Positions 30,773 to 61,200 of a DNA stretch of 64,000 nucleotides are shown in pieces (positions within the stretch are counted from its first letter, which is position 1; every line of letters begins with the position of its first letter). This DNA is from Promethearchaeota archaeon (GTDB lineage Archaea > Asgardarchaeota > Lokiarchaeia > Sigyniarchaeales > SOKP01). The position numbers and the translations under genes are program-made. Location: assembly GCA_030599585.1 (NCBI GenBank), contig JAUVNS010000001.1, positions 347,118 through 411,117 on the forward strand. The letters run 5' to 3'. Below the pieces are notes generated by a model. That model was not told the origin of the DNA. It ran no database searches and worked only from the letters and a program-made list of their open reading frames with translations.

Positions 30773-32056
30773 ATGACGCCTAAAATTGGAGTAATCCTCC
30801 TTGGTTTTGGGGAACCACCGGAGTACAACGAACACACATATTACTCGTTCCGTAATCTCGGAAAGAGCCTTATCGATATGGGTATTATTCCTAAGATTGT
30901 CTTGAAATCAAAAAGAGGGACCATTCTAATGGAACGAAATAATATCTTTTCTGAGGAACCCCATCCAGAACCAGATCTGATAGACGCATGGCTGAAACCA
31001 CATACTGAATTTACTGAGTTTGTTCCATCACGTGAAAAGCTCTTTAGACTCATTACGGCTCCACGAAAAGCTCATTATCTTCTCAAGGGAATGGAACCCG
31101 GTCGGAATGAGCCCGATTTCTATCAATTTTATGGTTTTGCGATCTGCCGAAAATGGCTTATAATGGACAATCACTCTCCATTTTATGAACACACCCAACC
31201 CCAGAAAATTGAGGTTAAACAACGGTTGGAAAAAAAGTATGGTGATCAATTCTTAATTAGATTTGCCTATGGTAACGATCCATTTCCCGAGAAAAAAATA
31301 CAATCCCCTCATCTTGTAGTTAAGGAATTAATCAATGATGGATGCGAACTAATAGCTGTAGCTGAACATTTTCATGTAATCTCAGATTCAATGTCTAAAC
31401 ATTATTGTCGTCAATCGGTATTAGATGGAATTCATCAAACTGGAAGTCAGATCCCTGTAGTATTCGCGGATCAGATCGGTGACCATAAAGAATTGATTCG
31501 GGGTATTGTCCTCAAAGTTAAAGAAGAACTTTCGGCAGTGAAGCAAGGTATTGATGTAGCAATTTTCCTTTCTAACCATGGATTCCCTATCACCAAGGTT
31601 GGTCATTACGATGCGGGATCCGATTGTTATCACAAAAATAATAAAAAGGTTTTTGAGAGTACTGAAGAAGCAATCCAAAAAAATATTGAATGGTCTGGCA
31701 GACTCAAAGTAATACAAGTTTTTGCTGAATACACTGAGGAGAAATATAATCCCGATGGAATCAAAACCTCACCTTTAGATGCAATTAGGCATGTAGCTGC
31801 TGATGGTTTTCAGCAGGTAATTGATATTCCATACGAGTGGCCCGGAGACACCGTAGATACATTAATCAATCTCCGTTATGCCTATGGGATCGATCCACCA
31901 TATTGGGACGAAAATTTTGAGACTCGATTTGAGAGCAACGGTATTCCAATCAAGATATGCTCAGCACTTTTTCACACTGAGTGCCGTATCAAAGCTTATT
32001 TTGAAAGAGCTTGCGAAGCCGTGGATCAATGTATAATGCTACTAAAAGAAAGATAA
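30773..32056 (+). CDS. Divergent ferrochelatase-like (class II chelatase) protein
   Basis: IGVILLGFGEP N-terminus, FLSNHGFP, PYEWPGDTVDTL resembling HemH motifs. Confidence 0.6.
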   Translation: MTPKIGVILLGFGEPPEYNEHTYYSFRNLGKSLIDMGIIPKIVLKSKRGTILMERNNIFSEEPHPEPDLIDAWLKPHTEFTEFVPSREKLFRLITAPRKAHYLLKGMEPGRNEPDFYQFYGFAICRKWLIMDNHSPFYEHTQPQKIEVKQRLEKKYGDQFLIRFAYGNDPFPEKKIQSPHLVVKELINDGCELIAVAEHFHVISDSMSKHYCRQSVLDGIHQTGSQIPVVFADQIGDHKELIRGIVLKVKEELSAVKQGIDVAIFLSNHGFPITKVGHYDAGSDCYHKNNKKVFESTEEAIQKNIEWSGRLKVIQVFAEYTEEKYNPDGIKTSPLDAIRHVAADGFQQVIDIPYEWPGDTVDTLINLRYAYGIDPPYWDENFETRFESNGIPIKICSALFHTECRIKAYFERACEAVDQCIMLLKER

Positions 32057-32251: not shown

Positions 32252-32719
32252 ATGGAATTGTATAAATTTCTACCAAAAACCAACTGCAAAAAATGCGGAA
32301 AGCCTACATGTATGGCGTTTAGTTTGGATTTATTGATGGGTAAAGTTAAAATCGACGATTGTCCTCCGCTTTTAGAATCAAAGTATAAAAAACAATACGA
32401 TACACTAAAGGAAATTCTTGGTTCAGAAGAAGGGCAACAAAAGGAGCTAAAAATAAATATAGATGAGGATCTCTGCGATGGTTGTGGAATCTGTGTCACT
32501 GTTTGTCCCGTAAATGCAAGATACTGTCCATCAAGTTTAAGTGGTAAAGCTCCAGAATATCCTCCTGAAGAGCACCAGCTCTTTCAAGTAGTTGGAGGAA
32601 AATGTGAATTGTTAAAAATTGAACATTGTAGAAGGTTAGAATCGGGGGGAAGAGAAAGGGAGTGTCGAGTCTGTGAAACCTATTGCCCTCGCGAAGCTGT
32701 TAAGATTGAATATGTTTAA
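32252..32719 (+). CDS. Fe-S protein (FwdG-like): N-terminal Fe-S domain plus 2[4Fe-4S] ferredoxin
   Basis: LPKTNCKKCG.PTCMAF...CPP; CDGCGICVTVCP; CRVCETYCP. Confidence 0.8.
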   Translation: MELYKFLPKTNCKKCGKPTCMAFSLDLLMGKVKIDDCPPLLESKYKKQYDTLKEILGSEEGQQKELKINIDEDLCDGCGICVTVCPVNARYCPSSLSGKAPEYPPEEHQLFQVVGGKCELLKIEHCRRLESGGRERECRVCETYCPREAVKIEYV

Positions 32720-32754
32720 TTAGTGATTTACTAAAATTTATTGAGGAATTTGTT

Positions 32755-34062
32755 ATGAAAAGGTTTACGTGTTCAGGTTGTTCGCTCCTATGCAATGATA
32801 TCATCGTTCAAAGCGATGGAATATTTATTAGTGAAGTAATAGGGGCTTGTTTAAAGGGAAAAGAAAGGTTTGATCAAGTGAGTGCTAAAAACAGGATTAC
32901 TAGCCCATTGATTAGAAAGAATGGCGAATTGATTGAGGTATCTTGGGATGAAGCAATGAATTCAGTTGCAGAAATCTTAAAAAAATCTAATAAACCTCTT
33001 CTTTATGGATTTTCAAATGTAACGTGCGAAGCTCAAGAAGCAGGTATAAAATTAGCAAGAGAAATCAATGGATTCATAGACTCAAATGCTTCAATTTGTC
33101 AAGGGAAGTTCTTAAAGAAAGCAAAAAGCCTAGGGATAAATTTTACGACCATTACCGAAGTTATTAACAAAGGAGATTTGATAATTCTATGGGGAGCTAA
33201 TCCCGCAGAGACAATTCCTAGATTGCTAAATAAACTTCTCTTCTCCCGAGGTAAATTTCGTATGACGGGAAGAGAAATTAAAACTCTAGTAATAATCGAT
33301 CCTGTAAAGACAGCATCTTTCAGAGTTATGGGCGTCCGAGACCTCGCATTGATGATTGAACCAAATAAAGACATTGAACTTATACGAATGCTAAAAGAAG
33401 AGTGTTGTTCTGCAGATAGCATACCTTCGGAAGGAGTAGCAGGAATAGATAAAAGCGATCTTAAACGCTTATTACTCCATCTTACTGGTGCAGAGAATGG
33501 AGTGATTATTGTAGGTCAAGGAGTTATTCAGCCTTATCCTGAATATGATTTAGTAGAAGAACTATTAAATTTATTACAACTGATAAACGAAAGACAAGAA
33601 AAAGGACGAATCTCTTTAATGTTATTGGGAGGACATTTTAACATGGCGGGCTTCGACCATGTAGCGCTTTCTGCTTATGGAGTTTCGGGTCATTTAGAAT
33701 TTGGAGGTAATCAACTGATAAAGACAAAAGATGGCTTCGTCTCAAAAATTGAAAAGAATGACTTCGATTGTTCCATCATTGTTGGAACAGACCCCATTTC
33801 TCATTTACCTTATGATTTAAGCTCAAAAATGGCAAAAAAGGCACTAATCCTTATAGATAACCATAACACAGCTACTTCACAAATAGCAGAGGTAGTATTA
33901 CCAACAACAATAACGGGAATTGAAAGCGGCGGATTAGCTTATCGTTTAGATCAAGTACCCATTGAATTAAATAAAATAATAAATCCACCTAATAACCTTC
34001 CATCAGACGAGGAATTACTTAATCAATTGATTGGATTATTAAATCAAGGGGGGTCGGAATAA
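32755..34062 (+). CDS. fwdB: Formylmethanofuran dehydrogenase subunit B-like (divergent)
   Basis: CSGCSLLC...C, VSWDEA, CEAQ, ASICQG, WGANP, GHFN..GF, AYRLD.VP. Confidence 0.85.
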   Translation: MKRFTCSGCSLLCNDIIVQSDGIFISEVIGACLKGKERFDQVSAKNRITSPLIRKNGELIEVSWDEAMNSVAEILKKSNKPLLYGFSNVTCEAQEAGIKLAREINGFIDSNASICQGKFLKKAKSLGINFTTITEVINKGDLIILWGANPAETIPRLLNKLLFSRGKFRMTGREIKTLVIIDPVKTASFRVMGVRDLALMIEPNKDIELIRMLKEECCSADSIPSEGVAGIDKSDLKRLLLHLTGAENGVIIVGQGVIQPYPEYDLVEELLNLLQLINERQEKGRISLMLLGGHFNMAGFDHVALSAYGVSGHLEFGGNQLIKTKDGFVSKIEKNDFDCSIIVGTDPISHLPYDLSSKMAKKALILIDNHNTATSQIAEVVLPTTITGIESGGLAYRLDQVPIELNKIINPPNNLPSDEELLNQLIGLLNQGGSE

Positions 34063-34063
34063 C

Positions 34064-34441
34064 TTGGAATTTATATTAAATTCGATTAGAAGAATTGATA
34101 ACGATCAAGTAAAAGAATACACTTTTGGGACTGAGCAATCATTAGAAGAGAAATTAGCTATTTGTTTTATTAATCCTAAAGATTTTGAAAAATTAAACTT
34201 AGTGTCAAGTCTGCATTTAAAAATATCAAATAAAGAGAAGCATGTTATAGTAAAGGTTGAGAAGGATGATGATGTTCCAGATGGAACGGTTTTAATGCCC
34301 GTTTCTATATGGTCAAATCGGTTATCGGTAGTTCAAAATAATGAAATTCTCTATAAAAACATCGTTGTGGATATGGAAGCTACACGCGAGCCAATAATGA
34401 AATTTAAAGAAATTATTCAAGAACTTGTGGTGAAAAAATAA
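34064..34441 (+). CDS. fwdD: Formylmethanofuran dehydrogenase subunit D-like (divergent)
   Basis: CFINPKD, VPDGTVLMP...WSN, YK; located between fwdB and fwdA. Confidence 0.75.
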   Translation: MEFILNSIRRIDNDQVKEYTFGTEQSLEEKLAICFINPKDFEKLNLVSSLHLKISNKEKHVIVKVEKDDDVPDGTVLMPVSIWSNRLSVVQNNEILYKNIVVDMEATREPIMKFKEIIQELVVKK

Positions 34442-34442
34442 G

Positions 34443-36107
34443 ATGACAAACCTTCTTGTAAAAAACGGTTTTGTTTTTGATCCCTTTAATAACATAGAAG
34501 GCGAGAAAAAGGACATTTTAATTGAAGATGGCAAAGTCGTAGATAAATTCGCAAGTAGTAGCGATATTAGGGAAATAGATGCTAAAGGGAAAACAGTTGT
34601 TCCAGCGGCGGTAGAGATTCACGCACATGTAGCCTCCCAGCAACTTAATTGGGCTCGATTACTTGGTTCTAACAACCAAGATTTTCAGGATCAATGGAAC
34701 GGCTTGACTTTAAATACTATCGCTAAAGATTATGTTTCTAACGGATATACTTTTATCCTTGAAGCTAACGTTTTCCCATCGCTAACAAAACAGACAATTT
34801 TTGATTTAAAACGATTACCCGTACTAGATAAGGCGTTCTTATTAAACACCAGCAATTTATGGACTCTAGAACTTGAGTTCCAGAAAGAGATGGTCGAAGA
34901 AGGTGCTGCTTTATTATCAGATCTATTAGAGAAAGTTAAAGGTTTTGGTTTGAAAGCCTACAATCCTTTCGAAGCAGAGTATTGGAATTGGAAAGTGGTT
35001 AGAAAAAACCTAACCGATAAAGGAAGACTATTCAATTTCGCTCCTATGGATGTGTATGAAAAACTACCGAGATTTGTTGAGCACTTAGGGTTACCTCATT
35101 CTATTCACGCTCATATTGAAGGATGCGAATCCCAATATTCTAAAGAAAATTTATTTGCTACTTTAAATAAGGTGAAATTGCTTGGATTAAAACCCAATCC
35201 AAAAAATGATTTTGAAATAAAGCGATCTCAAATATTTCATCTTGCACATGCTTCAAGTTATAACATTGACGGGAATAACTCTGAGTTGATTAAATTTTAC
35301 AGCGAAAATCATGACTTTGACATGGATTTGGGATTTGTAGGTTTTAACACAATAAATCCATTAATTACCTCTGATAGGCATCTTATAAACAAGCTAAATA
35401 ATTCAACAAACCCATACAAAATAATTAGATATTCTGTAGAAACTGAAGGAGACTCGTTTGCAACTCTCAGAAATTTCAGTAAAAAGAAGAAAGAAGATTG
35501 CGTAATGTGGGCGAACGCTATTGATTTAGCATTAAACATATCTCCATGGCAACTACAGTTTTCAGTAAATTATCCAAACTACGCCGATATAACAAATCTT
35601 CCTGAAATCGCAAGTTGGTTAATAAGTAATGAAGCTCGCAAACATTTTATGAAAGATATTGACGCTAGCTTTTTAAACGATAATACTCTTATCAGCAATG
35701 ATGAAGTATTACCATTTAATGATTTTATTATTTTAACTCGGTCGAGTCCTGCTAAGTCTCTCGGTATTGGGAGCATTAAAGGGAACTTAAGTTTAGGAGC
35801 TGACGGCGACCTCAACATTCTAAACTTGAATTTAAACGAAACTGACATTTCAAGAGACTATGAAAAATTCAAATCTGCCCTTAGTAATATTGAATACGTA
35901 ATTAAAGCAGGTCAAATAATAAAAAACCACGAAAAAATCAATCTGGGCGGGTCAGGAAAAATCCTATGGGCTTCCGGTAAGCCTGAAAAAGAAGACACTA
36001 CATCAATCTTAGCAAAGAAAGAAGATTTTTACCGAAAATATTATTCTAATTTCTATGATTCTTACTCCACAACTATCAATAAAAAAATATTGAGAAAAAT
36101 AGCTTAA
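34443..36107 (+). CDS. fwdA: Formylmethanofuran dehydrogenase subunit A-like amidohydrolase (divergent)
   Basis: KNGFVFDP.N, EIHAH, GYT, LGLPHSIHAH, TRSSPAKSLG, KGNL..GADGD. Confidence 0.85.
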   Translation: MTNLLVKNGFVFDPFNNIEGEKKDILIEDGKVVDKFASSSDIREIDAKGKTVVPAAVEIHAHVASQQLNWARLLGSNNQDFQDQWNGLTLNTIAKDYVSNGYTFILEANVFPSLTKQTIFDLKRLPVLDKAFLLNTSNLWTLELEFQKEMVEEGAALLSDLLEKVKGFGLKAYNPFEAEYWNWKVVRKNLTDKGRLFNFAPMDVYEKLPRFVEHLGLPHSIHAHIEGCESQYSKENLFATLNKVKLLGLKPNPKNDFEIKRSQIFHLAHASSYNIDGNNSELIKFYSENHDFDMDLGFVGFNTINPLITSDRHLINKLNNSTNPYKIIRYSVETEGDSFATLRNFSKKKKEDCVMWANAIDLALNISPWQLQFSVNYPNYADITNLPEIASWLISNEARKHFMKDIDASFLNDNTLISNDEVLPFNDFIILTRSSPAKSLGIGSIKGNLSLGADGDLNILNLNLNETDISRDYEKFKSALSNIEYVIKAGQIIKNHEKINLGGSGKILWASGKPEKEDTTSILAKKEDFYRKYYSNFYDSYSTTINKKILRKIA

Positions 36108-38775: not shown

Positions 38776-39918
38776 ATGAAAGTCAAAAGTTTTGAAGATT
38801 TAATTGAAGAAGTCCACAAAAAAGGGATTTGTCAACAATGTGGCGGTTGTGTAAGTTTCTGTAACTCCATGGATTATGATGTTATAGGATATAAAAAACC
38901 AAACTCGCCTCCAGAATTTATAAATGAAGGAAATTGTCTGAAATGTGGAATTTGTTATCACATATGCCCACAGACTCATGTGTTAGACTACGAACTCAAC
39001 AGAGCCTTTAATTTATTAGACTTTTCTTCGATGCCCTTAGGTAATACCAGCGAAATTTATTCCTGCCAGTCAACAGACTTTGATCTTCTACACCAAGGGA
39101 CAGACGGAGGAGTAGTTAATTCTTTGCTTACCTATATGTTTAAGGAAAAATTAATAGATGGAGCTGTAGTAGCTAAGACAAATGCGCCCTTCTCAAGAGA
39201 GCCGTTCTTTGCTGAGTGTAAAGAAGATTTAGTCGGAACATCGGGACTTAAATTAGGTATCTCACAGCAATTGGACGAAGTCCAAAAGCGCCATTCCTAT
39301 TCGAGCTCGCTCCCAGAATTAAACAAGCATAAATTTAAGAAACTCGCAGTAGTTGGAACGCCATGTCAGATTTATACCATTAGAAGCATGCAAAATCTCG
39401 GCATTATTCCTTCGCAAAATATTGAATATTGCTTAGGATTATTTTGTTACGAGAATTTTGAATTCGATCAACGAAAAGTAGAGAAATTTCAAAGGGAATT
39501 TAATATCAAATTCGAAGATATCGAAAAAATTAATATTAAAAAAGACTTAATTATCCAACTAAAAGGAGACAAAAACAGAAATTCTTTAATTCACATTGAA
39601 TTTGAAGATTTGAAAGATTATATTCGTCCAGCATGTAATGCCTGCAATGATTTTACGAATGTTTACGCAGATGTTTCGTTTGGAGGATTAGGTTCACCTG
39701 AACATTTTACAACAGTTATTACAAGAACTGAAAAGGGAAGACGAGCGGTAAACGATGCTCTTGAAAGGGGGATAATTAGTAATTTAGAATTAGATTCTGA
39801 AACCAAAAAGCATATGAAGGACCTTCTAATCGCACATTCAATTTCAAAGATGGCTCGAAAAGAGAGCTTTATGAAAAGTAAATTTGGACCTTTAAAGAAA
39901 GCTAAATCTACAGTTTAA
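38776..39918 (+). CDS. Coenzyme F420 hydrogenase/dehydrogenase beta-subunit (FrhB) family protein with N-terminal ferredoxin
   Basis: CQQCGGC, CLKCGIC, DGGVV, VGTPCQ, GLFCYENF, C..C.DF...ADVSFG. Confidence 0.9.
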   Translation: MKVKSFEDLIEEVHKKGICQQCGGCVSFCNSMDYDVIGYKKPNSPPEFINEGNCLKCGICYHICPQTHVLDYELNRAFNLLDFSSMPLGNTSEIYSCQSTDFDLLHQGTDGGVVNSLLTYMFKEKLIDGAVVAKTNAPFSREPFFAECKEDLVGTSGLKLGISQQLDEVQKRHSYSSSLPELNKHKFKKLAVVGTPCQIYTIRSMQNLGIIPSQNIEYCLGLFCYENFEFDQRKVEKFQREFNIKFEDIEKINIKKDLIIQLKGDKNRNSLIHIEFEDLKDYIRPACNACNDFTNVYADVSFGGLGSPEHFTTVITRTEKGRRAVNDALERGIISNLELDSETKKHMKDLLIAHSISKMARKESFMKSKFGPLKKAKSTV

Positions 39919-39988
39919 AACATTTTAGAAAAAAAAAAAAATTTAATTCCAAAAAATTATATGGTGATATAGTAAAAAGGTGTATTAA

Positions 39989-42016
39989 ATGTCTGATTTT
40001 ACGACCAATGCAAGAATCGGTGTTTATATCTGCAGATGAGGAGTTAATATAAGTAATAGCGTCGACTGCGATATTGTAAGAGAATACATGGAATTGCTCC
40101 CAGATGTCATAATTGCGAGAGTAAATGATTTCACATGTAGCGATCCAGGACAAAATATTATAAAAAACGATATTTTAGATCTGGGGTTAAACCGAGTTGT
40201 TGTTGCTGCGTGCACTCCAAAAATTCACGAATCTACTTACCGTGCTGTTTTAATTGAAGCTGGACTGAGCCCTTACTATTTTCAAATGGTTAATATTAGA
40301 GAGCATTGTTCTTTTGTCCATCCCAACGATATTAAAAAAGCTACTGAAAAAGCTATAAGAATGGTTAGGGGTGGTATAAATCGAGCTCGACAGTTAGAAG
40401 TTGTCCCATACAAGGAAATTCCGGTAAAAAAGGCTGCTTTAGTTGTAGGGGCAGGAATTGCCGGGATGAACGCTGCTTTAGATTTAGCAAACCAAGGGAT
40501 AAATGTTTATCTTGTTGAAAAAGAAGCAACAATAGGGGGAAAAATGGCTCAATTAGACAGAATCTACCCTACAGACGATTGTGGTATATGAGTTCTAGCA
40601 CCAATTATGGTTAGTACTTCAAAACATCCTAACATAACCTTACTTACATACAGCGAAATCGTAGAGTTTAGTGGTATTCCGGGGAATTTTAATATTAAAA
40701 TTAAGAAGAAACCTCGCTATGTGAATGAAAAAAAGTGTACGGGATGTGGTTTGTGTACTGAAAAATGCCCAATTAAAGTTCCAAACGAATTTAACAGGGG
40801 TATTGGCGAAAGAAGTGCGATTTACATTCCATTCCCACAAGCTGTTCCAAAATTCGCAACGATTGATAGAAGTGTATGCATTGAATGCAATAACTGCGAG
40901 AGAAGTTGTCCAGCTGAAGCAATTAAGTTTGACCAAGAACCCGAATTTATCGATATTAATGTTGGAGCCGTAATTGCTGCAACGGGATGGGACGAATATC
41001 CAATAATGAAATATAACGATTACAAATACGGCATTTATCCAGATGTTATTACTCAGATAGAGTTAGAGCGGATGCTGAGCCCAATCGGACCAACGGACGG
41101 ACACTTATATCGAATTTCTGATGGTAAGAAACCAAAAGTCGTTGCGATGATTCAGTGTGTAGGTTCAAGAAGTCTCAAAGGTAATCCATATTGTTCAGTA
41201 GTATGCTGCAGTGTCGCGCTTAAAAATGCTCAGCTGTTAAAGCAAGAATATCCAGACATGGAAGTAGTTATTTTTTACATAGACATGCGCACATGGGATA
41301 AGGGAAACGAAGAATATTATAGAAAAGTTAGAGAAGCGGGAGTCTTAACAATTCGGGGAAAAGTAGGAGCTATTCACAACGATCCAGAAACCAATAAACT
41401 CACACTTACAGCATCTGATACCCTTTCAAATCAAATTGTCAATCTTAACGCTGACTTAGTTGTTTTATCAACAGGTATGGTTCCTTCAAGACATTCAACA
41501 AAATTAATTGAAACTTTAAACCTAAACAAAGATAGCTACGGATTTTTAACGGAAGTTCACGGTTGTTTGAAACCTCAAGAAACGACCAATATGGGAATAT
41601 ACATATGTGGATGTGCTGCGGGACCTAAAAACATACCTTCTAGCGTCTCAACAGCTTCGGCAGCGGCAAGTAAAGCGGCTACATTACTTTCTAAAGACAC
41701 GATAATTCAAGAATTGGTAATTGCTGAAGTAGACAAGAACCTCTGTATGGGGTGTCAGAGATGCGAAAAACTATGTAACTATGGTGCTATAACAGTTGAT
41801 AAAGACTCTATTGCCCAAGTTGACGGTTTAAAATGTAAGGGATGTGGTGTGTGCGCATCTTCGTGCCCATCTCACGCAATCGATGTCAAGTATTATAGAA
41901 ACCTACAATTCGTCGAAGAAATAAAGGGAATTTGTAGTACTGAGCTTGAATACAAAGAAGAATATATTGATACGATTGAACTTATTACTGAAAAACTCAA
42001 TTCATTAACTCCTTAA
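39989..42016 (+). CDS. hdrA: Heterodisulfide reductase subunit A, 675 aa, with two in-frame UGA codons read as selenocysteine (U17, U201)
   Basis: ATG 39989 after AAGGTG. One frame: MSDFTTNARIGVYICR-UGA(40037)-GVNI... joins track ORF 40088-40591, then DDCGI-UGA(40589)-VLAPIM joins track ORF 40607-42016. Both UGAs fall on Cys positions of the HdrA motifs GVYxCxCGxNI and DCxxCILxP. Confidence 0.9.
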
Positions 42017-42024
42017 TAATTTAA

Positions 42025-42097
42025 ATCCGAAATAGGATGAATCTTTCAAAAAAATTATAGTTGAAAGAGAACTGACCCTCTGCAAGGGTTTTCGGAT
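42025..42097 (+). ncRNA. Putative SECIS element in the hdrA 3' UTR
   Basis: ATGA(42037)-A-TCTTTCAA / A-rich loop / TTGAAAGA-GA(42069), enclosed by ATCCGAAA(42025-32) pairing with TTTCGGAT(42090-97); side hairpin ACCCT/AGGGT. Confidence 0.7.
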
Positions 42098-46031: not shown

Positions 46032-47465
46032 CTAAGTAAAGTCTAAATCCTTTCTATGTCTTAGTTGACTGATGTTATTTTGCACATAAATAGATTCTAA
46101 ATTAGGTAGGACATCTTTATTCAATTTTTCTATTCTTTCCATGAGGTTCCTTCTTTGCTTGTATATCTCATTGCTAATAACTGTCTTTGGGTTTATGACA
46201 CTGTATGATCCATTAGTAGAGGTAATCCATTCTCGTTGAATTAGGCTATTAAGAGCACTTTTTACTAGATTTTTATCACTTTTCATGACCTCAGTTAATA
46301 TGGATTCACTTGCTTGCCCTAACGACATTAAAGTTGTGTAAGTTCTTATTTCAGAAGCAGATACATCTAATAATCCCATTGAGTCTAAAGTCTCTTTTTT
46401 GGGTAAGGTTATTTTTGTTTTCTTTCTAAAGGCATTTTTCTCAATTTTAAGATGATCGACATTATTGGAAGCAAAAATTTTATTTGCTTCAATTGCTTCA
46501 TTGAAGACTTTTACGCCAATATCTGTGCGCAGAATTACACTATTCCAATCATTACTATAGGTCCCTGCGCTTCCAACAGATATGTCAGCAAGTTCAGCAC
46601 TAAAATCTTTACAAAACTGACAGCTACTCCACTTGAATTGTTTCGTTTTTCCTATTGAAACTTGTTTAACTGACCCATCCTTCTTATATACATAGAACTG
46701 CCCTTTTGAAACATCGAATTTCTTTATAGTATTTAATGGTATTCCAAGTTCTCCTTGAACGAAGGTTTTCATTAGATCGTAAGTATAATTTGAGAAACAA
46801 TAAAGGCCTATAATTAATTTGAACTTTCCATAAACTTCTGAAAGAGGGGATGATAATTGCAATTTTCTCACTGCGTGGATTTGGCAAGGGACACCAACGA
46901 ATGCTAATTTTTCTAGTTTGAACTCCCTAATTGCTTCTCTGTAAGTAATTAATGTTGGTGAAATTGTATATTTGGAACCAACGCAAGATAATATTTCATC
47001 AGGAGTTCTCGCTATTACTGGTTTTGGAAACCATTTATCATCCTTATCTGTAAGTAAAACACCATCTATTAAACCTGATTCAAGAGCGTGAATTAATAGT
47101 GAAGAAACTACGCCTCCATTCTGAGCTCCCCTCAATACAGTTTCGTCGTTACTTTTTGCTGCTATTAATTTTTGATAGTGCCCTATTGAATAACTTTTAT
47201 TCGCATCACCATTGAACAATTCTTTTTCAAACATTTCTGTAGGAAAGTATGTTCTTGGACAATACCTAAAACAAGTGGAACATTCCGGATCATATTCTAA
47301 TAACTTTGGTTCCTTTTCGTTCATCCCAATTCGCGGACATAACGAGATACAAGACCCACAAAATACGCAGTTTTCTTTATCAATGACTAAGTCGCTTAAA
47401 TCTTGAAATCCTATATCAATATCGTTAGTTTGTAAGTAATTTTTTACTTCATTTTTCATTTCCAT
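46032..47465 (-). CDS. FrhB-family protein fused to a C-terminal TrmB-like winged helix
   Basis: CVFCGSC, QNGGVV, GSKY, VGVPCQ, IGLYC, CQFCKDF.AELADISVG; last ~115 aa: L.VSASEIRTYTTL..LGQAS...L......V...L.SL..REWI. Confidence 0.85.
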   Translation of the reverse strand: MEMKNEVKNYLQTNDIDIGFQDLSDLVIDKENCVFCGSCISLCPRIGMNEKEPKLLEYDPECSTCFRYCPRTYFPTEMFEKELFNGDANKSYSIGHYQKLIAAKSNDETVLRGAQNGGVVSSLLIHALESGLIDGVLLTDKDDKWFPKPVIARTPDEILSCVGSKYTISPTLITYREAIREFKLEKLAFVGVPCQIHAVRKLQLSSPLSEVYGKFKLIIGLYCFSNYTYDLMKTFVQGELGIPLNTIKKFDVSKGQFYVYKKDGSVKQVSIGKTKQFKWSSCQFCKDFSAELADISVGSAGTYSNDWNSVILRTDIGVKVFNEAIEANKIFASNNVDHLKIEKNAFRKKTKITLPKKETLDSMGLLDVSASEIRTYTTLMSLGQASESILTEVMKSDKNLVKSALNSLIQREWITSTNGSYSVINPKTVISNEIYKQRRNLMERIEKLNKDVLPNLESIYVQNNISQLRHRKDLDFT

Positions 47466-52265: not shown

Positions 52266-53723
52266 ATGAAAATACCTCGCTGTATGAGTACCCAACATCC
52301 CGATAATGTCCACCTTCCTTTTTTCGCTGAATCTCCTGATCTGGGAGGCGAGGATGAAATTCAGGAAGCCTATTATGCTTATTCACATCTTAAGTGCGAT
52401 GAGCAAATGTGGGATGCGGAGGGAAAAGAAGTTGATGGATTCGTGGTAAAAAAACTCTTAACTAAATTCCCTGATTTTTTTTCAGATAACCGGCTAGGAA
52501 AAGATGTATTTTTAACTATAAGAGTTCCAAACCCCAAAGAAGAAAAAGCAGAAGCAAAGGTTCTAATTGAGACTCTGGAAAGCATTCCGCGTTCGTTTGA
52601 TGCTGCAAACATGTATTTTAAGGATGATATCGCTCCTATTTTTGAAGTGATCCTTCCCATGACAACATCAGAGCAGGGACTTGACAGAATTTATAATTAT
52701 TATAATAAATTTGTGGTAGGAAAGCAATTTTATCCTACTATTGACGGTGATATCCTAATCTCAGATTGGGTTGGTGAATTTAAACCTCATAATATAAACG
52801 TAATCCCTCTTGTTGAGGATAAGCAACACATGCTTTTTTCTCATTTACTATTAAAATCCTACCTTAGCGATAAAGACTTTGAATACCAGAGGATTTTTTT
52901 CGCTCGATCAGACCCTGCTTTAAATTACGGGCTATTATCCGCTGTGATAGTAAATAAAATAGCTCATCAAAGAATTCATCAATTGGAAGAAGAAATTAGC
53001 GTGGATTTATATCCAATTATTGGAGTAGGTTCTGCGCCTTTTAGAGGAAATTTGCGGCCAGACACAGTTGAGAGAGTAATAAAAGAATATCCAAGCGTAC
53101 AGACTTTTACAGTTCAATCGGCCTTTAAGTATGATTATCCTCCAAATGTCGTTTCAAAAGCAATCAATCAACTTTGCGAAACACCAAGAAGTAGACCACA
53201 TTACATGGAAGAAGAACGATGCATTGAAATTGTAGAAAGATATTCCGAAGAATATGGAAAACATGTTATGAAATTAGCGCCATTCATTAACAAAGTTGCA
53301 AAATATGTCCCGAAAAGAAGAAAGAGAAAACTTCACATTGGATTATTTGGTTACGGTCGCACAATGGGGAATCACCGTTTACCTCGAGCAATTGGTTTCA
53401 CAGCTTCTCTCTGTTCTATGGGATTACCACCGGCATTACTTGGATTAAACGCATTAACTCAGAAGGATTACGATTTTATACTTACTCAATACATAAATTT
53501 TGAAGAAGACCTTCGGGATGCTCTGAAATATTTTAATCCTGAAAATCCTTTTACGCCCAAGTCTATAAGCAAAAAAGTAAAGGAATTAGCATTAGACTAT
53601 GAAATGGATGAAAAACACAAAAATGTAACTGATTACATTATAAATTCTCTGAGGGCTAATAAAACAGAGGACCTGTCAGTAAAAATCCTAATGGCGGCAA
53701 ATCAAAGGAGATACCTTGGATAG
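52266..53723 (+). CDS. ppcA: Archaeal-type phosphoenolpyruvate carboxylase
   Basis: IPRCMSTQHPDN, MWDAEGK, ARSDPALNYG, GSAPFRG, LPRAI.F. Confidence 0.95.
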   Translation: MKIPRCMSTQHPDNVHLPFFAESPDLGGEDEIQEAYYAYSHLKCDEQMWDAEGKEVDGFVVKKLLTKFPDFFSDNRLGKDVFLTIRVPNPKEEKAEAKVLIETLESIPRSFDAANMYFKDDIAPIFEVILPMTTSEQGLDRIYNYYNKFVVGKQFYPTIDGDILISDWVGEFKPHNINVIPLVEDKQHMLFSHLLLKSYLSDKDFEYQRIFFARSDPALNYGLLSAVIVNKIAHQRIHQLEEEISVDLYPIIGVGSAPFRGNLRPDTVERVIKEYPSVQTFTVQSAFKYDYPPNVVSKAINQLCETPRSRPHYMEEERCIEIVERYSEEYGKHVMKLAPFINKVAKYVPKRRKRKLHIGLFGYGRTMGNHRLPRAIGFTASLCSMGLPPALLGLNALTQKDYDFILTQYINFEEDLRDALKYFNPENPFTPKSISKKVKELALDYEMDEKHKNVTDYIINSLRANKTEDLSVKILMAANQRRYLG

Positions 53724-54489: not shown

Positions 54490-56565
54490 CTAAGTGCCAT
54501 TATTCACAAGATTATCTATTAACCATTGAGCAGCAGAGATTAGTAGGTCAGCTTCTTCATTTGTAAGTTTCTTTCCTCTCATTGCTTCAACTTGATGTAT
54601 AAAAGCCTCGATTTGGTGGATTGCTACATCCGTGAGTCCCATTTCTATTGAATCTTGAGCAACTTCTAATTTTATAATAAGACTCTCCTCCGATACTCCC
54701 GGTAAATCTAATTCTTCTACATCTTCTATGATCTCTTCAGCAGCTTCTTCCGGGCTTTCAACGATTATCGTAAAGGAAGTGCTGCCTATACCACCGTCAT
54801 CATCCGTGATGGTGAGAGTCACAGTATATTCACCTGCTTCGGCATAGGCATGTGTTGGTATTAATGTATCTGAAGCGGAATTAAGGTCACCAAAATCCCA
54901 GGTAATAAAGTGAGAATCATATATCCCAGGATCAAAAAAGCTTCCGTGAAATTCGATTACATCTGAAGGTAAAATAAAGTTTGGAAACGGTTGCATCACT
55001 TGGTCTATTAATACCATTGGGGCAACATTATTAACCGTAACAGTTGTATCATCTGTCACTTCAACTGTACCATCAGAAACCTGAACGACTACTTGACCGG
55101 TATAATCATCGAACCAAGTATATTCTGAGACGGGATTGGAATCCCAATCCGTATCCCAAGACCCATCGCTATCAAAATCCCAACGAAATTGCAAGGGATC
55201 ATTATCCGGGTCGGTGCTTCCACTAGCATCAAAAACGACCGTTTCACCCTCACTAGCGTCTTGCTGAAGACCAGCAACTGCTAAAGGCGGTTGGTTCTCT
55301 ACAACTTCAATTTCTGTTAAGAACCCCATGTTAATAAGCTCATCCCCAGAAATTGCTTTCCAGTTCCCTACATTATCACGTATTTCTACATGTACAACAT
55401 GCCATGTTCCAGTCTCACTATATTGTGGGAATTCTACAGTGCGTTCATACACACCATCTAATTCATCTCCTGAAATACGGTGCCAGTGATTGACCCAATT
55501 CCCCCTAGTTTGAGTTCCAGAAGGGCTAGCTATAAGCCAACTAGCTTGAGATACTCCAGAAAATTCATCCGTAAGTCTCAAAGTAAAAGTAACTATTTGA
55601 GAACTTGCACTTACATCTATCGTAGTTGGAGTAAAGTCTAATTCTGTTAATTCTGGTGGTGCTAAATCTTCAGGATTTGAAATTACTTCTATAGTGGTTT
55701 CGAATCCTAGTTCTATGAGATCATCCTCAGAGATTGCTACCCAGATCCCTACATTATCGCGCAATTCTACATGTACAACATGCCACGTCCCAGCTTCACT
55801 ATATTGTGGGAATTCTACAGTACGTTCATACACACCATCTAATTCATCTCCGGATATACGATGCCAATGATTGACCCAATTCCCCCTAGTTTGAGTTCCA
55901 GAAGGGCTAGCTATAAGCCAACTAGCTTGAGATACTCCAGATAATTCATCCGTAAGTCTTAAAGTAAAAGTAACTATTTGAGAACTTGCACTTACATCTA
56001 TCATAGTTGGATTGAAGTCAAATCCTTCTAAATTTGGGGAAGCTAGGTCAGGCCCTCCAACAACGAGAATTTTTGTTTCTATTCCCAGTTCTATGAGATC
56101 ATCCTCAGAGATTGCTACCCAATTCCCTACATTATCACGCATTTCTACATGTACAACATGCCACATCCCAGCTTCACTATATTGTGGGAATTCCACAGTC
56201 CGTTCATACACACCATCTAATTCACCTCCTGAAATACGGTGCTCGTGATTGACCCAATTCCCCCTAGTTTGAGTTCCAGAAGGGCTAGCTATAAGCCAAC
56301 TAGCTTGAGATACTCCAGATAATTCATCTATAAGTCTCAAAGTAAAAGTAACTATTTGAGAACTTGCACTTACATCTATCGTAGTTGGAGTAAAGTCTAA
56401 TTCTGTTAATTCTGGTGGTGTTAAATCCCCGCTAGAAATTCTGTATTTCTCTATTTCATGATTTCCATTGCTATAATTAATTATCGTTCCTATTTGAGGA
56501 AATACGAATATTAAAAATATAGCAAAAACGATACCTATCGAAAACATCTTGTTAGTTCTTGTCAT
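54490..56565 (-). CDS. Secreted protein with three tandem ~126-aa repeats, PKD domains and a helical C-terminal domain
   Basis: N-terminal TM/signal; repeats D..PP.L..LDF.PTTIDVS; PKD signatures FDASGS.DPD, WDFD.DG, WDFGD, H.Y...G.YTV.LT..D.DG. Confidence 0.85.
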   Translation of the reverse strand: MTRTNKMFSIGIVFAIFLIFVFPQIGTIINYSNGNHEIEKYRISSGDLTPPELTELDFTPTTIDVSASSQIVTFTLRLIDELSGVSQASWLIASPSGTQTRGNWVNHEHRISGGELDGVYERTVEFPQYSEAGMWHVVHVEMRDNVGNWVAISEDDLIELGIETKILVVGGPDLASPNLEGFDFNPTMIDVSASSQIVTFTLRLTDELSGVSQASWLIASPSGTQTRGNWVNHWHRISGDELDGVYERTVEFPQYSEAGTWHVVHVELRDNVGIWVAISEDDLIELGFETTIEVISNPEDLAPPELTELDFTPTTIDVSASSQIVTFTLRLTDEFSGVSQASWLIASPSGTQTRGNWVNHWHRISGDELDGVYERTVEFPQYSETGTWHVVHVEIRDNVGNWKAISGDELINMGFLTEIEVVENQPPLAVAGLQQDASEGETVVFDASGSTDPDNDPLQFRWDFDSDGSWDTDWDSNPVSEYTWFDDYTGQVVVQVSDGTVEVTDDTTVTVNNVAPMVLIDQVMQPFPNFILPSDVIEFHGSFFDPGIYDSHFITWDFGDLNSASDTLIPTHAYAEAGEYTVTLTITDDDGGIGSTSFTIIVESPEEAAEEIIEDVEELDLPGVSEESLIIKLEVAQDSIEMGLTDVAIHQIEAFIHQVEAMRGKKLTNEEADLLISAAQWLIDNLVNNGT
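55300..56430. repeat. Three near-identical intragenic tandem repeats, 378-381 bp period
   Basis: GAAGGGCTAGCTATAAGCCAACTAGCTTGAGATACTCCAGA recurs at 55520, 55901 and 56279; outer boundaries approximate. Confidence 0.9.
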
Positions 56566-58263: not shown

Positions 58264-61200
58264 TTACATTTTAAACGTCTTAATTTTCAGCATTTCAGCG
58301 ATGACCCAAAGGAAAACAAATAATCCAAATGGAAAATATGTATATAGATATAATTTATTGAAGTTTTGAACGATTTCAAGAGAATCAGTTTTGCTATCAT
58401 CTGTTAAATCACCAGAGTCTTGTAATTTTGCGTTTTTATCAACAGTTTCAAACGTAAAATTGCCTACAAAGAAGCTCTTTCTCCATATCTCTACAACGTA
58501 AACTTCAGGCTTTTTCAAAGTCTTAAAATTCGTAATATACAACTCGCCAATCGAGTCAATGCGATAATTCGTAGAACCATCTCCAAATATAGCTAGCTGT
58601 AGAATATCTTCGGGGTTGTCGAACGCATATATAACGATATGAAGTTCTTCGTTGAGGACAAATGGTGTATTGATATCCACCGCTTCCGCCACTCTAAGTG
58701 AAAATTTCACAGGCATCGTTCTTCCGGCATTATTTTCTTCAGTAGCGGGTAATAATTCTAAAACTGCCCAATTTCTAATACTAACGCTAGTTATTTTTAC
58801 CCCAATAAGACCGAATCTATCACTCGATTCAACAATCAGCAAATAATAACCATCGGGTAGATCGGTTGTGTTAAAAAATAACTGCCATTGTTTAGTTATT
58901 TCGTCGTATACTGCTGACATATTTTCAAAGTCATCGTGGATAAATATTCCATTTGCTCCATCATCCTCTCGAATGGTAAGGTTTACCCAAATAACCCCAC
59001 TCAAATCTTCTGCTTTCCCTGTGAATACAATACCGTCTTGCAGAGCTTGATTTTCTCCTGGTGTCTCCACAGTAATAGAAGGAGGTGCAGTATCTATAAA
59101 GAGGCCAAATATGGATAGACTTTCTACTTCACCATAGATAATGTTGTTATCCATGTCAATAAAAACTGTTATATCTTCCCATTCTCCTGAAGTTTCATTA
59201 TAATGCAAAAGAGTCAAAAAATTCTCATCTCCGACAACGCTCTCATCATAGGGAATTTCTAAGTGTATGGTACCTTCATACTCTGCAGTTGTAGTGATTG
59301 AATAATAAATATCACCTAACTGGAAACCTTCTGGTGAAATTGGCCCTGTTTCAGAACCTTCAATGGTTGTGGCTCCAGCTTCGGTAACTTCATCGAAAGT
59401 TAGATTAATAAAATAATTCTGGTCGGTGATCTGAACATTGGGTTCAGCAGGTGTGTAGGTGTCAACATTAGCTAAGGGATCTGTATTGTAAAGCAATATT
59501 TCGTTACCATCTGATATCCCATCACCATCAGAATCTAAAAGGTTTGGACTTGTACCTAGGATTATTTCTTCGGCATTTGTGAGACCATCACCATCGGTAT
59601 CTCCATTTGGGTCAGGTGTATAATCAAAGATAGGTTTATAATCTCTATTGATACCACCAGGGATATCATAGGGAGTATCTCCCATTCCGTCGTGATCGGC
59701 ATCTACACCTATATAATCTCCCCAATAATTTCCAATAACAGTATTATTCCAAAAATTTATTCCGTCATCAAATCCATTAAGGATAATATTATCAAATATT
59801 TTATTTCCCGAGATGGTATTAGAATCGCAATTAATTAAATGGATCCCATAATAAAGGTTATTATTTGCAGCGTTTCCCGTAATAGTATTATCATCGCAAT
59901 TATATAAATAGATTCCATTATCTCTGTTATTGTTTGCGATGTTTCCCGAGATGGTGTTGTTGTCACTATAATATAAATATATTCCAAAATAAGTGTTGTT
60001 GTTTGCGGTATTTCCCGAGATGATGTTGTTGACACAATAAAAAAGATATATTCCACGAACTTGATTTGCAGTTAAATTGTTACTTGCGGTATTTCCCGAG
60101 ATGGTGTTGTCGTAACACAGATCTAAATATATTCCATAATAATGGTTATTGTTTGCGGTGTTTCCCGAGAGGGTGTTATCGTGGCACCGCGTCCTTAAAG
60201 ATATTCCAGAAGCATGGTTATCGTTTGCGGTGTTTCCTATGATCTCGTTAGCAAGGCAGTATTTAGATAAATAGATTCCATAATTGTTACTGTTTGCGGT
60301 GTTTCCCGTAATGGTATTAGAATTGCAGTGATACGCTAAATAGATCCCATAATAAGTGTTGTTGTTTGCAGTGTTTCCAGAGATGGTGTTATCGTCGCAC
60401 CACTCGTATAAATATATTCCATAATAAGTGTTATTGTTTGCGGTGTTTCCTGTTATGGTATTTTCATAGCAAATATGGTTTAAATGTATCCCATATTGTT
60501 CGTTATTGTTTGCGGTGTTTCCCGAGATGGTGTTGTTGTCACTATCATATAAATATATTCCAAAATAAGTGTTGTTGCTTGCGGTGTTTCCCGAGATGGT
60601 GTTGTTGTCACAATATGTTAAATATATTCCATAATATTGGTTATCGTTTGCGGTATTTCCCGAGATGATGTTGTTGACACAATAAATAAAATATAATCCA
60701 CGATCTTGATTTGCAGTTAAATTGTTACCTGCGGTGTTTCCCGAGATTGTGTTGTTGTCACATTGACTTAAAATGATTCCGGCACCATGGTTATTGTTTG
60801 CGGTGTTTCCCGAGATGGTGTTATCGTGGCACCACCTGCTTAAATATATTCCAGAAGCATGGTTATCGTTTGCGGTGTTTCCTGAGAGGGTGTTATCGTG
60901 GCAACTTATGCTTAAATATATTCCAAAATAAATGTTGTTGTTTGCGGTGTTTCCCGTGATATTGTTACGATCGCAGGAAGTTATTAAATATATCCCAAAG
61001 TCGTTATTGTTTGCGGTGTTTCCCGAGATGGTGTTATCGTCGCACCACTCGTATAAATAGATTCCATAATTGTTATTGTTTGCGGTGTTTCCTATGATCT
61101 TGTTAGCAAAGCAGTATTTAGTTAAATAGATTCCATAATCTCTGTTATTGTTTGCGGTGTTTCCCGAGATGGTGTTGTTGTCACTATAATATAAATATAT

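What the first reader, a model, noticed from the sequence alone, without database searches (positions are those of the whole stretch)
39989..42016. HdrA hidden as a selenoprotein with two in-frame UGA codons
Seen: the two track ORFs plus 33 upstream codons form one 676-codon frame broken only by TGA at 40037-40039 (GVYICR*GVNI) and 40589-40591 (PTDDCGI*VLAP). There is no frameshift and no TAA/TAG, and an RBS precedes ATG 39989. Known: these positions correspond to the second Cys of the HdrA N-terminal CxCG Fe-S motif and the Cys of DCxxC; Sec-containing HdrA is known from methanogens, and Sec use is known in Lokiarchaeota. Inference: both UGAs are decoded as Sec, so one HdrA would carry two Se ligands in different Fe-S sites. 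The N-terminal CxU site is the less familiar one. Automated annotation would call this two fragments or a pseudogene.
Basis: partly seen in the sequence, partly recalled or inferred. Interest (0 to 1): 0.9.

Follow-up and report, generated by a model that had tools for sequence, protein, structure and literature searches.

The report
Two-selenocysteine HdrA in a Lokiarchaeon
This is an intact gene for the electron-bifurcating flavoprotein HdrA in an Asgard (Loki-type) archaeon, almost certainly read through two UGA "stop" codons as selenocysteine; that has been published for this group since 2016, and the only unremarked twist is that this copy has lost its usual partner gene vhuD and kept that gene's selenocysteine signal and last helix.

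Summary
Observation confirmed: 39989-42016 is one 675-aa HdrA frame broken only by TGA at codons 17 and 201. Both fall on Cys columns. In 44 homologues, all 98 core TGAs lie in Cys columns. The genome has SepSecS, EFSec, PSTK, two SelD and a two-intron tRNA-Sec. A covarying lokiSECIS starts 23 nt after the stop codon's first base. Sec decoding is very likely (0.93).

It is not new. Mariotti 2016 reported Loki HdrA with up to four Sec, and Huang 2024's data set lists orthologues with both sites. This genome has four more HdrA paralogues with 3-4 UGAs. The scan noted the same thing in other genomes.

In solved Hdr structures the U201 position is a Cys/Sec relay pair next to, or ligating, the N-terminal cluster, and U17 probably ligates that same cluster.

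Small twist: this paralogue (47 of 161 genomes, two genera) lacks the downstream vhuD. It apparently arose by an in-frame deletion that left VhuD's last helix as its tail and moved the SECIS next to its stop. It usually lies beside an frhB-like gene.

The parts
39989..42016 (+). hdrA, 675 aa when both UGA are read as Sec. N-terminal Fe-S domain, FAD/thioredoxin-reductase domain, inserted and C-terminal 2x[4Fe-4S] ferredoxin domains; all cluster cysteines intact
39978..39982 (+). Shine-Dalgarno-like AGGTG, 6 nt before the ATG; same motif in orthologues
40037..40039 (+). UGA, codon 17 (CxU). One of four near-invariant Cys/Sec columns (15, 17, 50, 75) of the N-terminal domain; probable ligand of cluster HA3/A3 (inferred)
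   Evidence: TGA in 29 of 30 full-length orthologues of this sub-clade, GGA in one
40589..40591 (+). UGA, codon 201 (DCxxU), the canonical HdrA Sec position, paired with Cys198 (40580-40582)
41957..42013 (+). C-terminal tail (about residues 657-675) that matches the last helix of VhuD/MvhD; remnant of the deleted vhuD (inferred)
42026..42096 (+). lokiSECIS: AUGA 42037-42040, 9-bp stem 42041-42049/42061-42069, A-rich 11-nt loop, AA 42070-42071. Also a lower helix 42026-42031/42091-42096 and an extra hairpin 42075-42089
38776..39918 (+). FrhB/FdhB/FpoF-like F420-binding protein with N-terminal ferredoxin motifs, ending 70 nt before hdrA; possible electron-input partner (inferred from adjacency only)

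Best explanation
One mRNA gives one 675-aa HdrA selenoprotein. EFSec with Sec-tRNA(Sec) is recruited by the eukaryote-like SECIS just behind the stop and inserts Sec at both UGAs, about 2.0 kb and 1.45 kb upstream; the true stop is UAA. The protein is an ordinary flavin-based electron-bifurcating HdrA. U201 with C198 forms the thiol/selenol relay between FAD and the mobile N-terminal [4Fe-4S] shuttle cluster. U17 most likely is one of that cluster's ligands, so in the dimer both Se atoms serve the same low-potential exit step. The gene arose by duplication of an hdrA-vhuD-SECIS unit, then an in-frame deletion of about 430-460 nt. This removed most of vhuD, fused its last ~20 codons onto hdrA and brought the SECIS next to the stop. 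The protein most likely borrows a VhuD and HdrB/C or HdrD from elsewhere in the genome and exchanges electrons with F420 through the neighbouring FrhB-like protein. Shown here: frame, alignment, conservation, machinery genes, SECIS covariation, tail homology, tree position. Inferred: actual Sec insertion, ligand roles, partners, direction of electron flow.
For: Frame and Cys-column match. 98 of 98 TGAs in Cys columns, with Cys and Sec alternating at the same columns. Synonymous differences exceed non-synonymous ones on both sides of U201. Machinery: SepSecS over cut-off, two SelD with an in-frame TGA, EFSec-like 480-aa frame, PSTK-like frame, and a 93-nt 9/4 tRNA-Sec with UCA anticodon after removing two introns. 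SECIS: 10 of 19 pairs change on both sides, 93% of cells pair, slid controls pair at most 60%. A strict pattern finds 7 sites in the genome, 6 behind UGA-bearing ORFs, against 0.33 in shuffles. Tail: all 14 tails of the first set hit VhuD profile positions ~109-134 (best 9.2 bits, window 5.9; the two best of 2800 shuffles scored 8.9 and 5.6), while no sister HdrA hits those profile positions with its C-terminus. DNA likeness to sisters jumps from the hdrA end to the vhuD end/SECIS. The vhuD-less rows form one branch (SH 100) among hdrA-vhuD sisters. Literature: PMC4989117, PMC11227280, PMC9012536, PMC13518236, PMC13580544.
Against: No proteomic or 75Se evidence. One close orthologue (L026, genome G012) has GGA/Gly at codon 17, so that site may be dispensable, or this is an assembly error near a contig end. 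EFSec and PSTK hits lie below the curated cut-offs of the models used. I found no paper listing the N-terminal cluster ligands by residue, and Mariotti 2016 (before the structures) called most Sec sites non-ligands. Single-tail scores against VhuD are weak; the case rests on their shared position. The frhB neighbour is divergent in most genomes and absent in 7 of 27 scoreable loci. The genome is a MAG with about 9% contamination, so the machinery contigs are assigned to it by binning.
Confidence: 0.93

Rival explanations
1. Only the canonical U201 is decoded. UGA17 terminates, or translation starts at ATG 40088, giving an HdrA without the first N-terminal cluster ligands.
For: An in-frame ATG lies at 40088. 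One orthologue has Gly at codon 17. UGA17 is ~2 kb from the SECIS.
Against: UGA17 is kept in 29 of 30 sub-clade orthologues and alternates with TGT/TGC in other HdrA. Residue 34 is not a conserved Met in orthologues, while the upstream ATG and its RBS are conserved. Cys15 upstream of the UGA is invariant. Long-range decoding of up to six UGAs by one lokiSECIS is proposed in PMC4989117.
Confidence: 0.04
2. Pseudogene with two nonsense mutations, or assembly errors.
For: Plain annotation gives two fragments. The genome has about ten other HdrA-like genes, so one could be lost.
Against: The same two codons recur in dozens of genomes, always at Cys columns and never as TAA/TAG. There is no frameshift, substitutions are mostly synonymous, the SECIS covaries, and a public contig is identical.
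Confidence: 0.01
3. UGA is reassigned genome-wide to Cys, Trp or Gly, so no Sec is involved.
For: The TGAs sit at Cys columns; one orthologue has Gly.
Against: TGA still ends 224 of 1948 long frames, and this gene uses TGG, TGT and TGC normally. In-frame TGA is limited to SECIS-bearing genes, and the tRNA with UCA anticodon has the tRNA-Sec shape.
Confidence: 0.01
4. On function only (compatible with Sec decoding): this paralogue works without any VhuD. The VhuD-derived tail fills the VhuD docking site, and the FrhB-like neighbour feeds F420 electrons directly, or the protein acts as a non-bifurcating or regulatory HdrA.
For: vhuD was lost once, and the copy is kept in 47 genomes with a conserved tail, usually beside an intact hdrA-vhuD sister. 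frhB-like genes are adjacent in 20 of 27 scoreable loci.
Against: In solved complexes the MvhD [2Fe-2S] cluster is the entry to FAD (PMC13580544, PMC13518236). The genome has 11 vhuD-like genes that could act in trans, and frhB-like genes also follow normal hdrA-vhuD units. The tail is modelled only at pLDDT 40-50.
Confidence: 0.15

Closest known systems
Multi-Sec HdrA of Lokiarchaeota (Mariotti et al. 2016, PMC4989117)
   Same: Several in-frame UGAs at conserved Cys columns, always including the canonical ~200 position; UAA/UAG true stop; lokiSECIS with AUGA, 9-bp stem and 11-nt A-rich loop. I recover five Sec columns in 44 homologues, matching their 'five possible positions' in number.
   Different: They found hdrA 'in every single case' upstream of vhuD, sharing one SECIS behind vhuD. 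Here vhuD is gone and the SECIS follows hdrA directly. The lower helix with an extra hairpin is not described in the passages I read.
Asgard selenoproteome (Huang, Xiao and Zhang 2024, PMC11227280)
   Same: Their HdrA file has orthologues with X at both sites and the same tail (e.g. Lokiarchaeia_GCA_019894885_U_4). They describe the AUGA_AA core for Loki hdrA/frhD.
   Different: The text says hdrA and frhD are always neighbours and 'almost all' share a SECIS; it does not discuss the vhuD-less sub-clade or its origin.
Sec-HdrA of Methanococcales (M. maripaludis Hdr-Vhu-Fwd, PMC13518236) and Cys-HdrA 5ODC, 8RVU, 7BKB
   Same: Same four-domain architecture, 39-49% identity to the solved chains, same CxxU/CxxC pair.
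   Different: One Sec only, Cys in the N-terminal CxC, and a known complex with VhuD/MvhD and HdrBC. No hdrBC or mvh genes flank this copy.

Membership tests
Lokiarchaeial multi-Sec HdrA | Full-length HdrA homologue with FAD motif and cluster cysteines | tested here: met
   E 5e-218 to PDB HdrA over residues 7-651; all ferredoxin and HA4 cysteines invariant; fold search ranks Hdr structures first
Lokiarchaeial multi-Sec HdrA | In-frame UGA at conserved Cys columns, including the canonical ~200 position | tested here: met
Lokiarchaeial multi-Sec HdrA | True stop is UAA/UAG | tested here: met
   TAA TAA at 42014-42019
Lokiarchaeial multi-Sec HdrA | lokiSECIS (AUGA, 9-bp stem, A-rich 11-nt loop, GA/AA) downstream | tested here: met
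   42037-42071, with covariation
Lokiarchaeial multi-Sec HdrA | Sec machinery in the genome (tRNA-Sec, SepSecS, PSTK, EFSec, SelD) | tested here: met
   EFSec and PSTK below the model cut-offs but clear best hits; EFSec, tRNA-Sec and SepSecS lie within about 7 kb on contig C28
Lokiarchaeial multi-Sec HdrA | Sec actually incorporated in the protein | not testable with these tools
   needs proteomics or 75Se labelling
Canonical hdrA-vhuD shared-SECIS cassette | vhuD directly downstream, one SECIS behind vhuD | tested here: not met
   no vhuD behind the window gene or its orthologues; SECIS AUGA mostly 14-23 nt from the hdrA stop
Electron-bifurcating HdrABC-MvhD complex | Partner subunits HdrB/C (or HdrD) and MvhD available | tested here: inconclusive
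   none adjacent; many CCG-domain genes and 11 vhuD-like genes elsewhere in the genome; which ones bind is unknown
Electron-bifurcating HdrABC-MvhD complex | Bifurcation activity | not testable with these tools
   Lys412 and Glu360 are invariant; that Lys412 equals the FAD N5 lysine (Lys409 in 5ODC) is from my own knowledge

The most novel reading that the evidence does not exclude
A Loki-specific HdrA sub-family has shed its VhuD adaptor, kept VhuD's last helix as a built-in tail, and works with an FrhB-like protein as a VhuD-independent F420-linked module whose shuttle cluster is bound by selenium. Its paralogues would carry up to three Sec ligands on that one [4Fe-4S] cluster.
Probability: 0.15. 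Interest if true: 0.55.

Novelty: already known. Interest (0 to 1): 0.2.

Why it matters
As annotation: the gene is intact, and pipelines that split it lose a redox subunit and miscount Hdr paralogues in Asgard genomes. As biology the core point is published. Two smaller points could be useful. First, the vhuD-less copy is a natural minimal case of one lokiSECIS directly behind a two-UGA gene, a simpler reporter for long-range archaeal Sec insertion than the two-gene cassette, and it shows how a SECIS can pass to a neighbour by deletion. Second, read against structures solved after 2016, the extra Loki Sec sites map to the N-terminal shuttle-cluster domain. Natural Cys/Sec variants there (0 to 3 Se) could test how selenium tunes the unresolved FAD-to-shuttle step of electron bifurcation.

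Tried and rejected
Rfam RF01852 and plain ARAGORN missed the tRNA-Sec because of its two introns; ARAGORN's C21 'SeC' call with a 1245-nt intron and its low-threshold SeC calls were not accepted. Rfam has no match to the SECIS region. Single-strand folding of the element alone was only z -2.3; covariation was the informative test. The sigma-70 promoter/terminator scan was at chance level and is not suited to archaea. Complex prediction of the FrhB-like protein with the HdrA C-terminal domain gave no verdict. The RNA run X19 holds only short contigs of relatives and says nothing on expression of this gene. Three literature searches found no residue-level list of the N-terminal cluster's ligands, and one found no paper joining Loki HdrA, MvhD and FrhB. 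The IQ-TREE run timed out, so the tree is FastTree only, midpoint-rooted, with no clade test. One search was a mis-specified alignment and was ignored.

Full report
Observation. The + frame from ATG 39989 to TAA 42014-42016 has 675 sense codons and only two internal stops, both TGA: codon 17 (40037-40039) and codon 201 (40589-40591). Plain ORF calling gives 40088-40591 and 40607-42016. An AGGTG lies 6 nt before the ATG. The read-through product is a full HdrA: E 5e-218 against PDB HdrA chains over residues 7-651, and a predicted model finds Hdr structures first. Codon 17 aligns to the second Cys of the N-terminal CxCG. Codon 201 aligns to the last Cys of DCxxC, written X in entry 9SFI. A public contig is identical across both codons (it may be the source sample).

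Chance, pseudogene or recoding. The same genome has four more HdrA genes with 3, 3, 4 and 3 in-frame TGAs, plus all-Cys paralogues. Of 41 related genomes, 40 have HdrA matches, most with 2-4 TGAs. In 44 aligned homologues every one of 98 core TGAs lies in a Cys/Sec-conserved column (27 of 638). Five columns are used: 17, 50, 75, 201 and 303 in window numbering. Column 17 reads U 37, C 6, G 1; column 201 reads U 41, C 3. Synonymous differences outnumber non-synonymous ones on both sides of U201 (327:137 and 226:103). TGA is still a normal stop genome-wide (224 of 1948 long frames), and the gene uses TGG/TGT/TGC normally. Pseudogene and general reassignment are rejected.

Machinery. SepSecS passes its cut-off at C28:17005-18306. 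Two SelD genes on C34 each carry one TGA. An EFSec-like 480-aa frame lies at C28:12078-12959 and a PSTK-like frame at C9:160274-161014; both are below the model cut-offs but are clear best hits. Standard tools missed tRNA-Sec. I found it at C28:16776-16926, between EFSec and SepSecS, with a 28-nt intron in the anticodon loop and a 30-nt intron in the T loop. Spliced in silico it is a 93-nt 9/4 cloverleaf with UCA anticodon and G discriminator, and ARAGORN calls it tRNA-SeC. Mariotti 2016 reported the T-loop intron and the linkage to EFSec.

SECIS. AUGA at 42037 opens a 9-bp stem with an 11-nt A-rich loop, closed by AA, as defined for lokiSECIS with the AUGA_AA core noted for Loki hdrA/frhD. 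Across 24 distinct copies, 93% of cells pair, 10 of 19 pairs change on both sides, and slid controls pair at most 60%. A lower helix and an extra 4-bp hairpin covary too. An earlier scan note (e1-5628398) pointed me to that hairpin, and it holds here. A strict pattern gives 7 hits in the genome, 6 behind UGA-bearing ORFs, against 0.33 in shuffled sequence.

What the two Sec do. The papers I read argue otherwise. The canonical residue (Cys197/Sec197) was described as a ligand, from the partner protomer, of the N-terminal cluster (PMC9012536). In cryo-EM maps it forms a selenosulfide between FAD and that cluster (PMC13518236), or binds an unknown ligand together with its partner Cys (PMC13580544). 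The N-terminal domain holds one [4Fe-4S] 'shuttle' cluster, and in my alignment it has four near-invariant Cys/Sec columns, 15, 17, 50 and 75, while 107 varies more. I infer that U17 is one ligand of that cluster, so that U17 and U201 of the partner meet at the same relay. I could not read coordinates or find a residue list, so this is inference. Mariotti's remark that most sites are not cluster ligands predates these structures. One orthologue has Gly at 17, which may be an error or may mean the site is dispensable.

What differs from the published picture. Mariotti found hdrA always followed by vhuD with one shared SECIS; Huang says 'always neighbours' and 'almost all' share. The window gene has no vhuD, and its SECIS follows its own stop. 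Orthologues share this. In 20 further loci none had vhuD behind hdrA; 13 matched my SECIS pattern, 3 have a stop that coincides with the UGA of the SECIS core, and 4 did not match and were not examined. Forty-seven of 161 genomes of the class, from two genera of one family, carry the full-length tail. The 11 such rows in the tree form one branch (SH 100) among hdrA-vhuD sisters. Their ~20-aa tail hits the last helix of VhuD in all 14 first-set cases at the same profile positions. The scores are weak singly, but no sister HdrA C-terminus hits those positions, and 17 more tails repeat the hit. At DNA level, likeness to sisters ends about 60-85 nt before the stop and resumes at the vhuD end/SECIS, 430-460 nt further on in the sister. 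The simplest history is duplication, then an in-frame deletion of vhuD. An FrhB-like gene (38776-39918) is adjacent in 20 of 27 scoreable loci, co-directional in 6 and divergent in 14; kin are not independent. Since solved complexes use MvhD as the entry to FAD, and this genome has 11 vhuD-like genes, supply in trans is the likelier mechanism. A VhuD-free module is the open alternative.

Comparison and novelty. Multi-Sec HdrA in Lokiarchaeota (up to four Sec, five positions) was published in 2016. The 2024 Asgard survey's HdrA file holds the same CxU motif 38 times and includes orthologues of this very sub-clade with both sites marked and the same tail. The scan has flagged the same gene in other genomes. 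The finding as given is therefore already known. The deletion origin, the VhuD-derived tail and the mapping of the extra Sec to the shuttle-cluster domain are not in the texts I could read, but they are refinements.

Verdict.

Noticed in passing
G000:C28:16776-16926 (+), outside the window: tRNA-Sec gene with two introns: 28 nt in the anticodon loop and 30 nt in the T loop. Missed by Rfam and ARAGORN; Mariotti 2016 mentions only the T-loop intron. It lies between EFSec and SepSecS.
   Followed up: yes
G000:C50:65394-67340 (-); C24:310912-312906 (-); C26:76457-78436 (-); C24:251335-253335 (-): Four more Sec-HdrA paralogues, each followed by a UGA-bearing vhuD. The C50 copy has UGA at three of the four near-invariant N-terminal Cys columns plus the canonical site, i.e. 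possibly three Se ligands on one cluster.
   Followed up: partly
L118, L119, L120 (codon 406 or 407); L121 (codons 260, 297): Some orthologues of the vhuD-less clade gained further UGAs in the HA4 CC motif or the inserted ferredoxin, beyond the five columns in my main alignment.
   Followed up: partly
L026 (G012:C71, codon 17); L129 (G111, codon 112): L026 has GGA (Gly) at the N-terminal Sec site. L129 has a TGA at a non-Cys column. Either may be a sequencing error.
   Followed up: no
G000:C34 (+), ORF just upstream of SECIS at 226786: A small frame of about 70 codons with two UGAs, followed by a lokiSECIS with the extra hairpin; family not determined.
   Followed up: no
G000:C34:187468-191178 (+): Two selD genes about 3 kb apart, each with one in-frame TGA.
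   Followed up: no
window 32252-36107 (+): fwd-type cluster (Fe-S protein, FwdB, FwdD, FwdA) about 2.7 kb upstream of the frhB-hdrA pair. The linkage is kept in G013, G010 and G014 (in G014 fwdA lies just upstream of hdrA).
   Followed up: partly
window 46032-47465 (-): A second FrhB/FdhB-like protein, fused to a C-terminal TrmB-like HTH domain: a possible F420-sensing regulator.
   Followed up: no
window 58264-63918 (-) and 54490-56565 (-): Large surface-type proteins: 1884 aa with many beta-helix (NosD) repeats and TSP3 repeats; 691 aa with PKD and DUF7743/7035 domains.
   Followed up: no
window 10773-13181 (+), 52266-53723 (+), 30773-32056 (+): Glycyl-radical (PFL-like) enzyme, archaeal-type PEP carboxylase and a weak ferrochelatase-like protein.
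   Followed up: no
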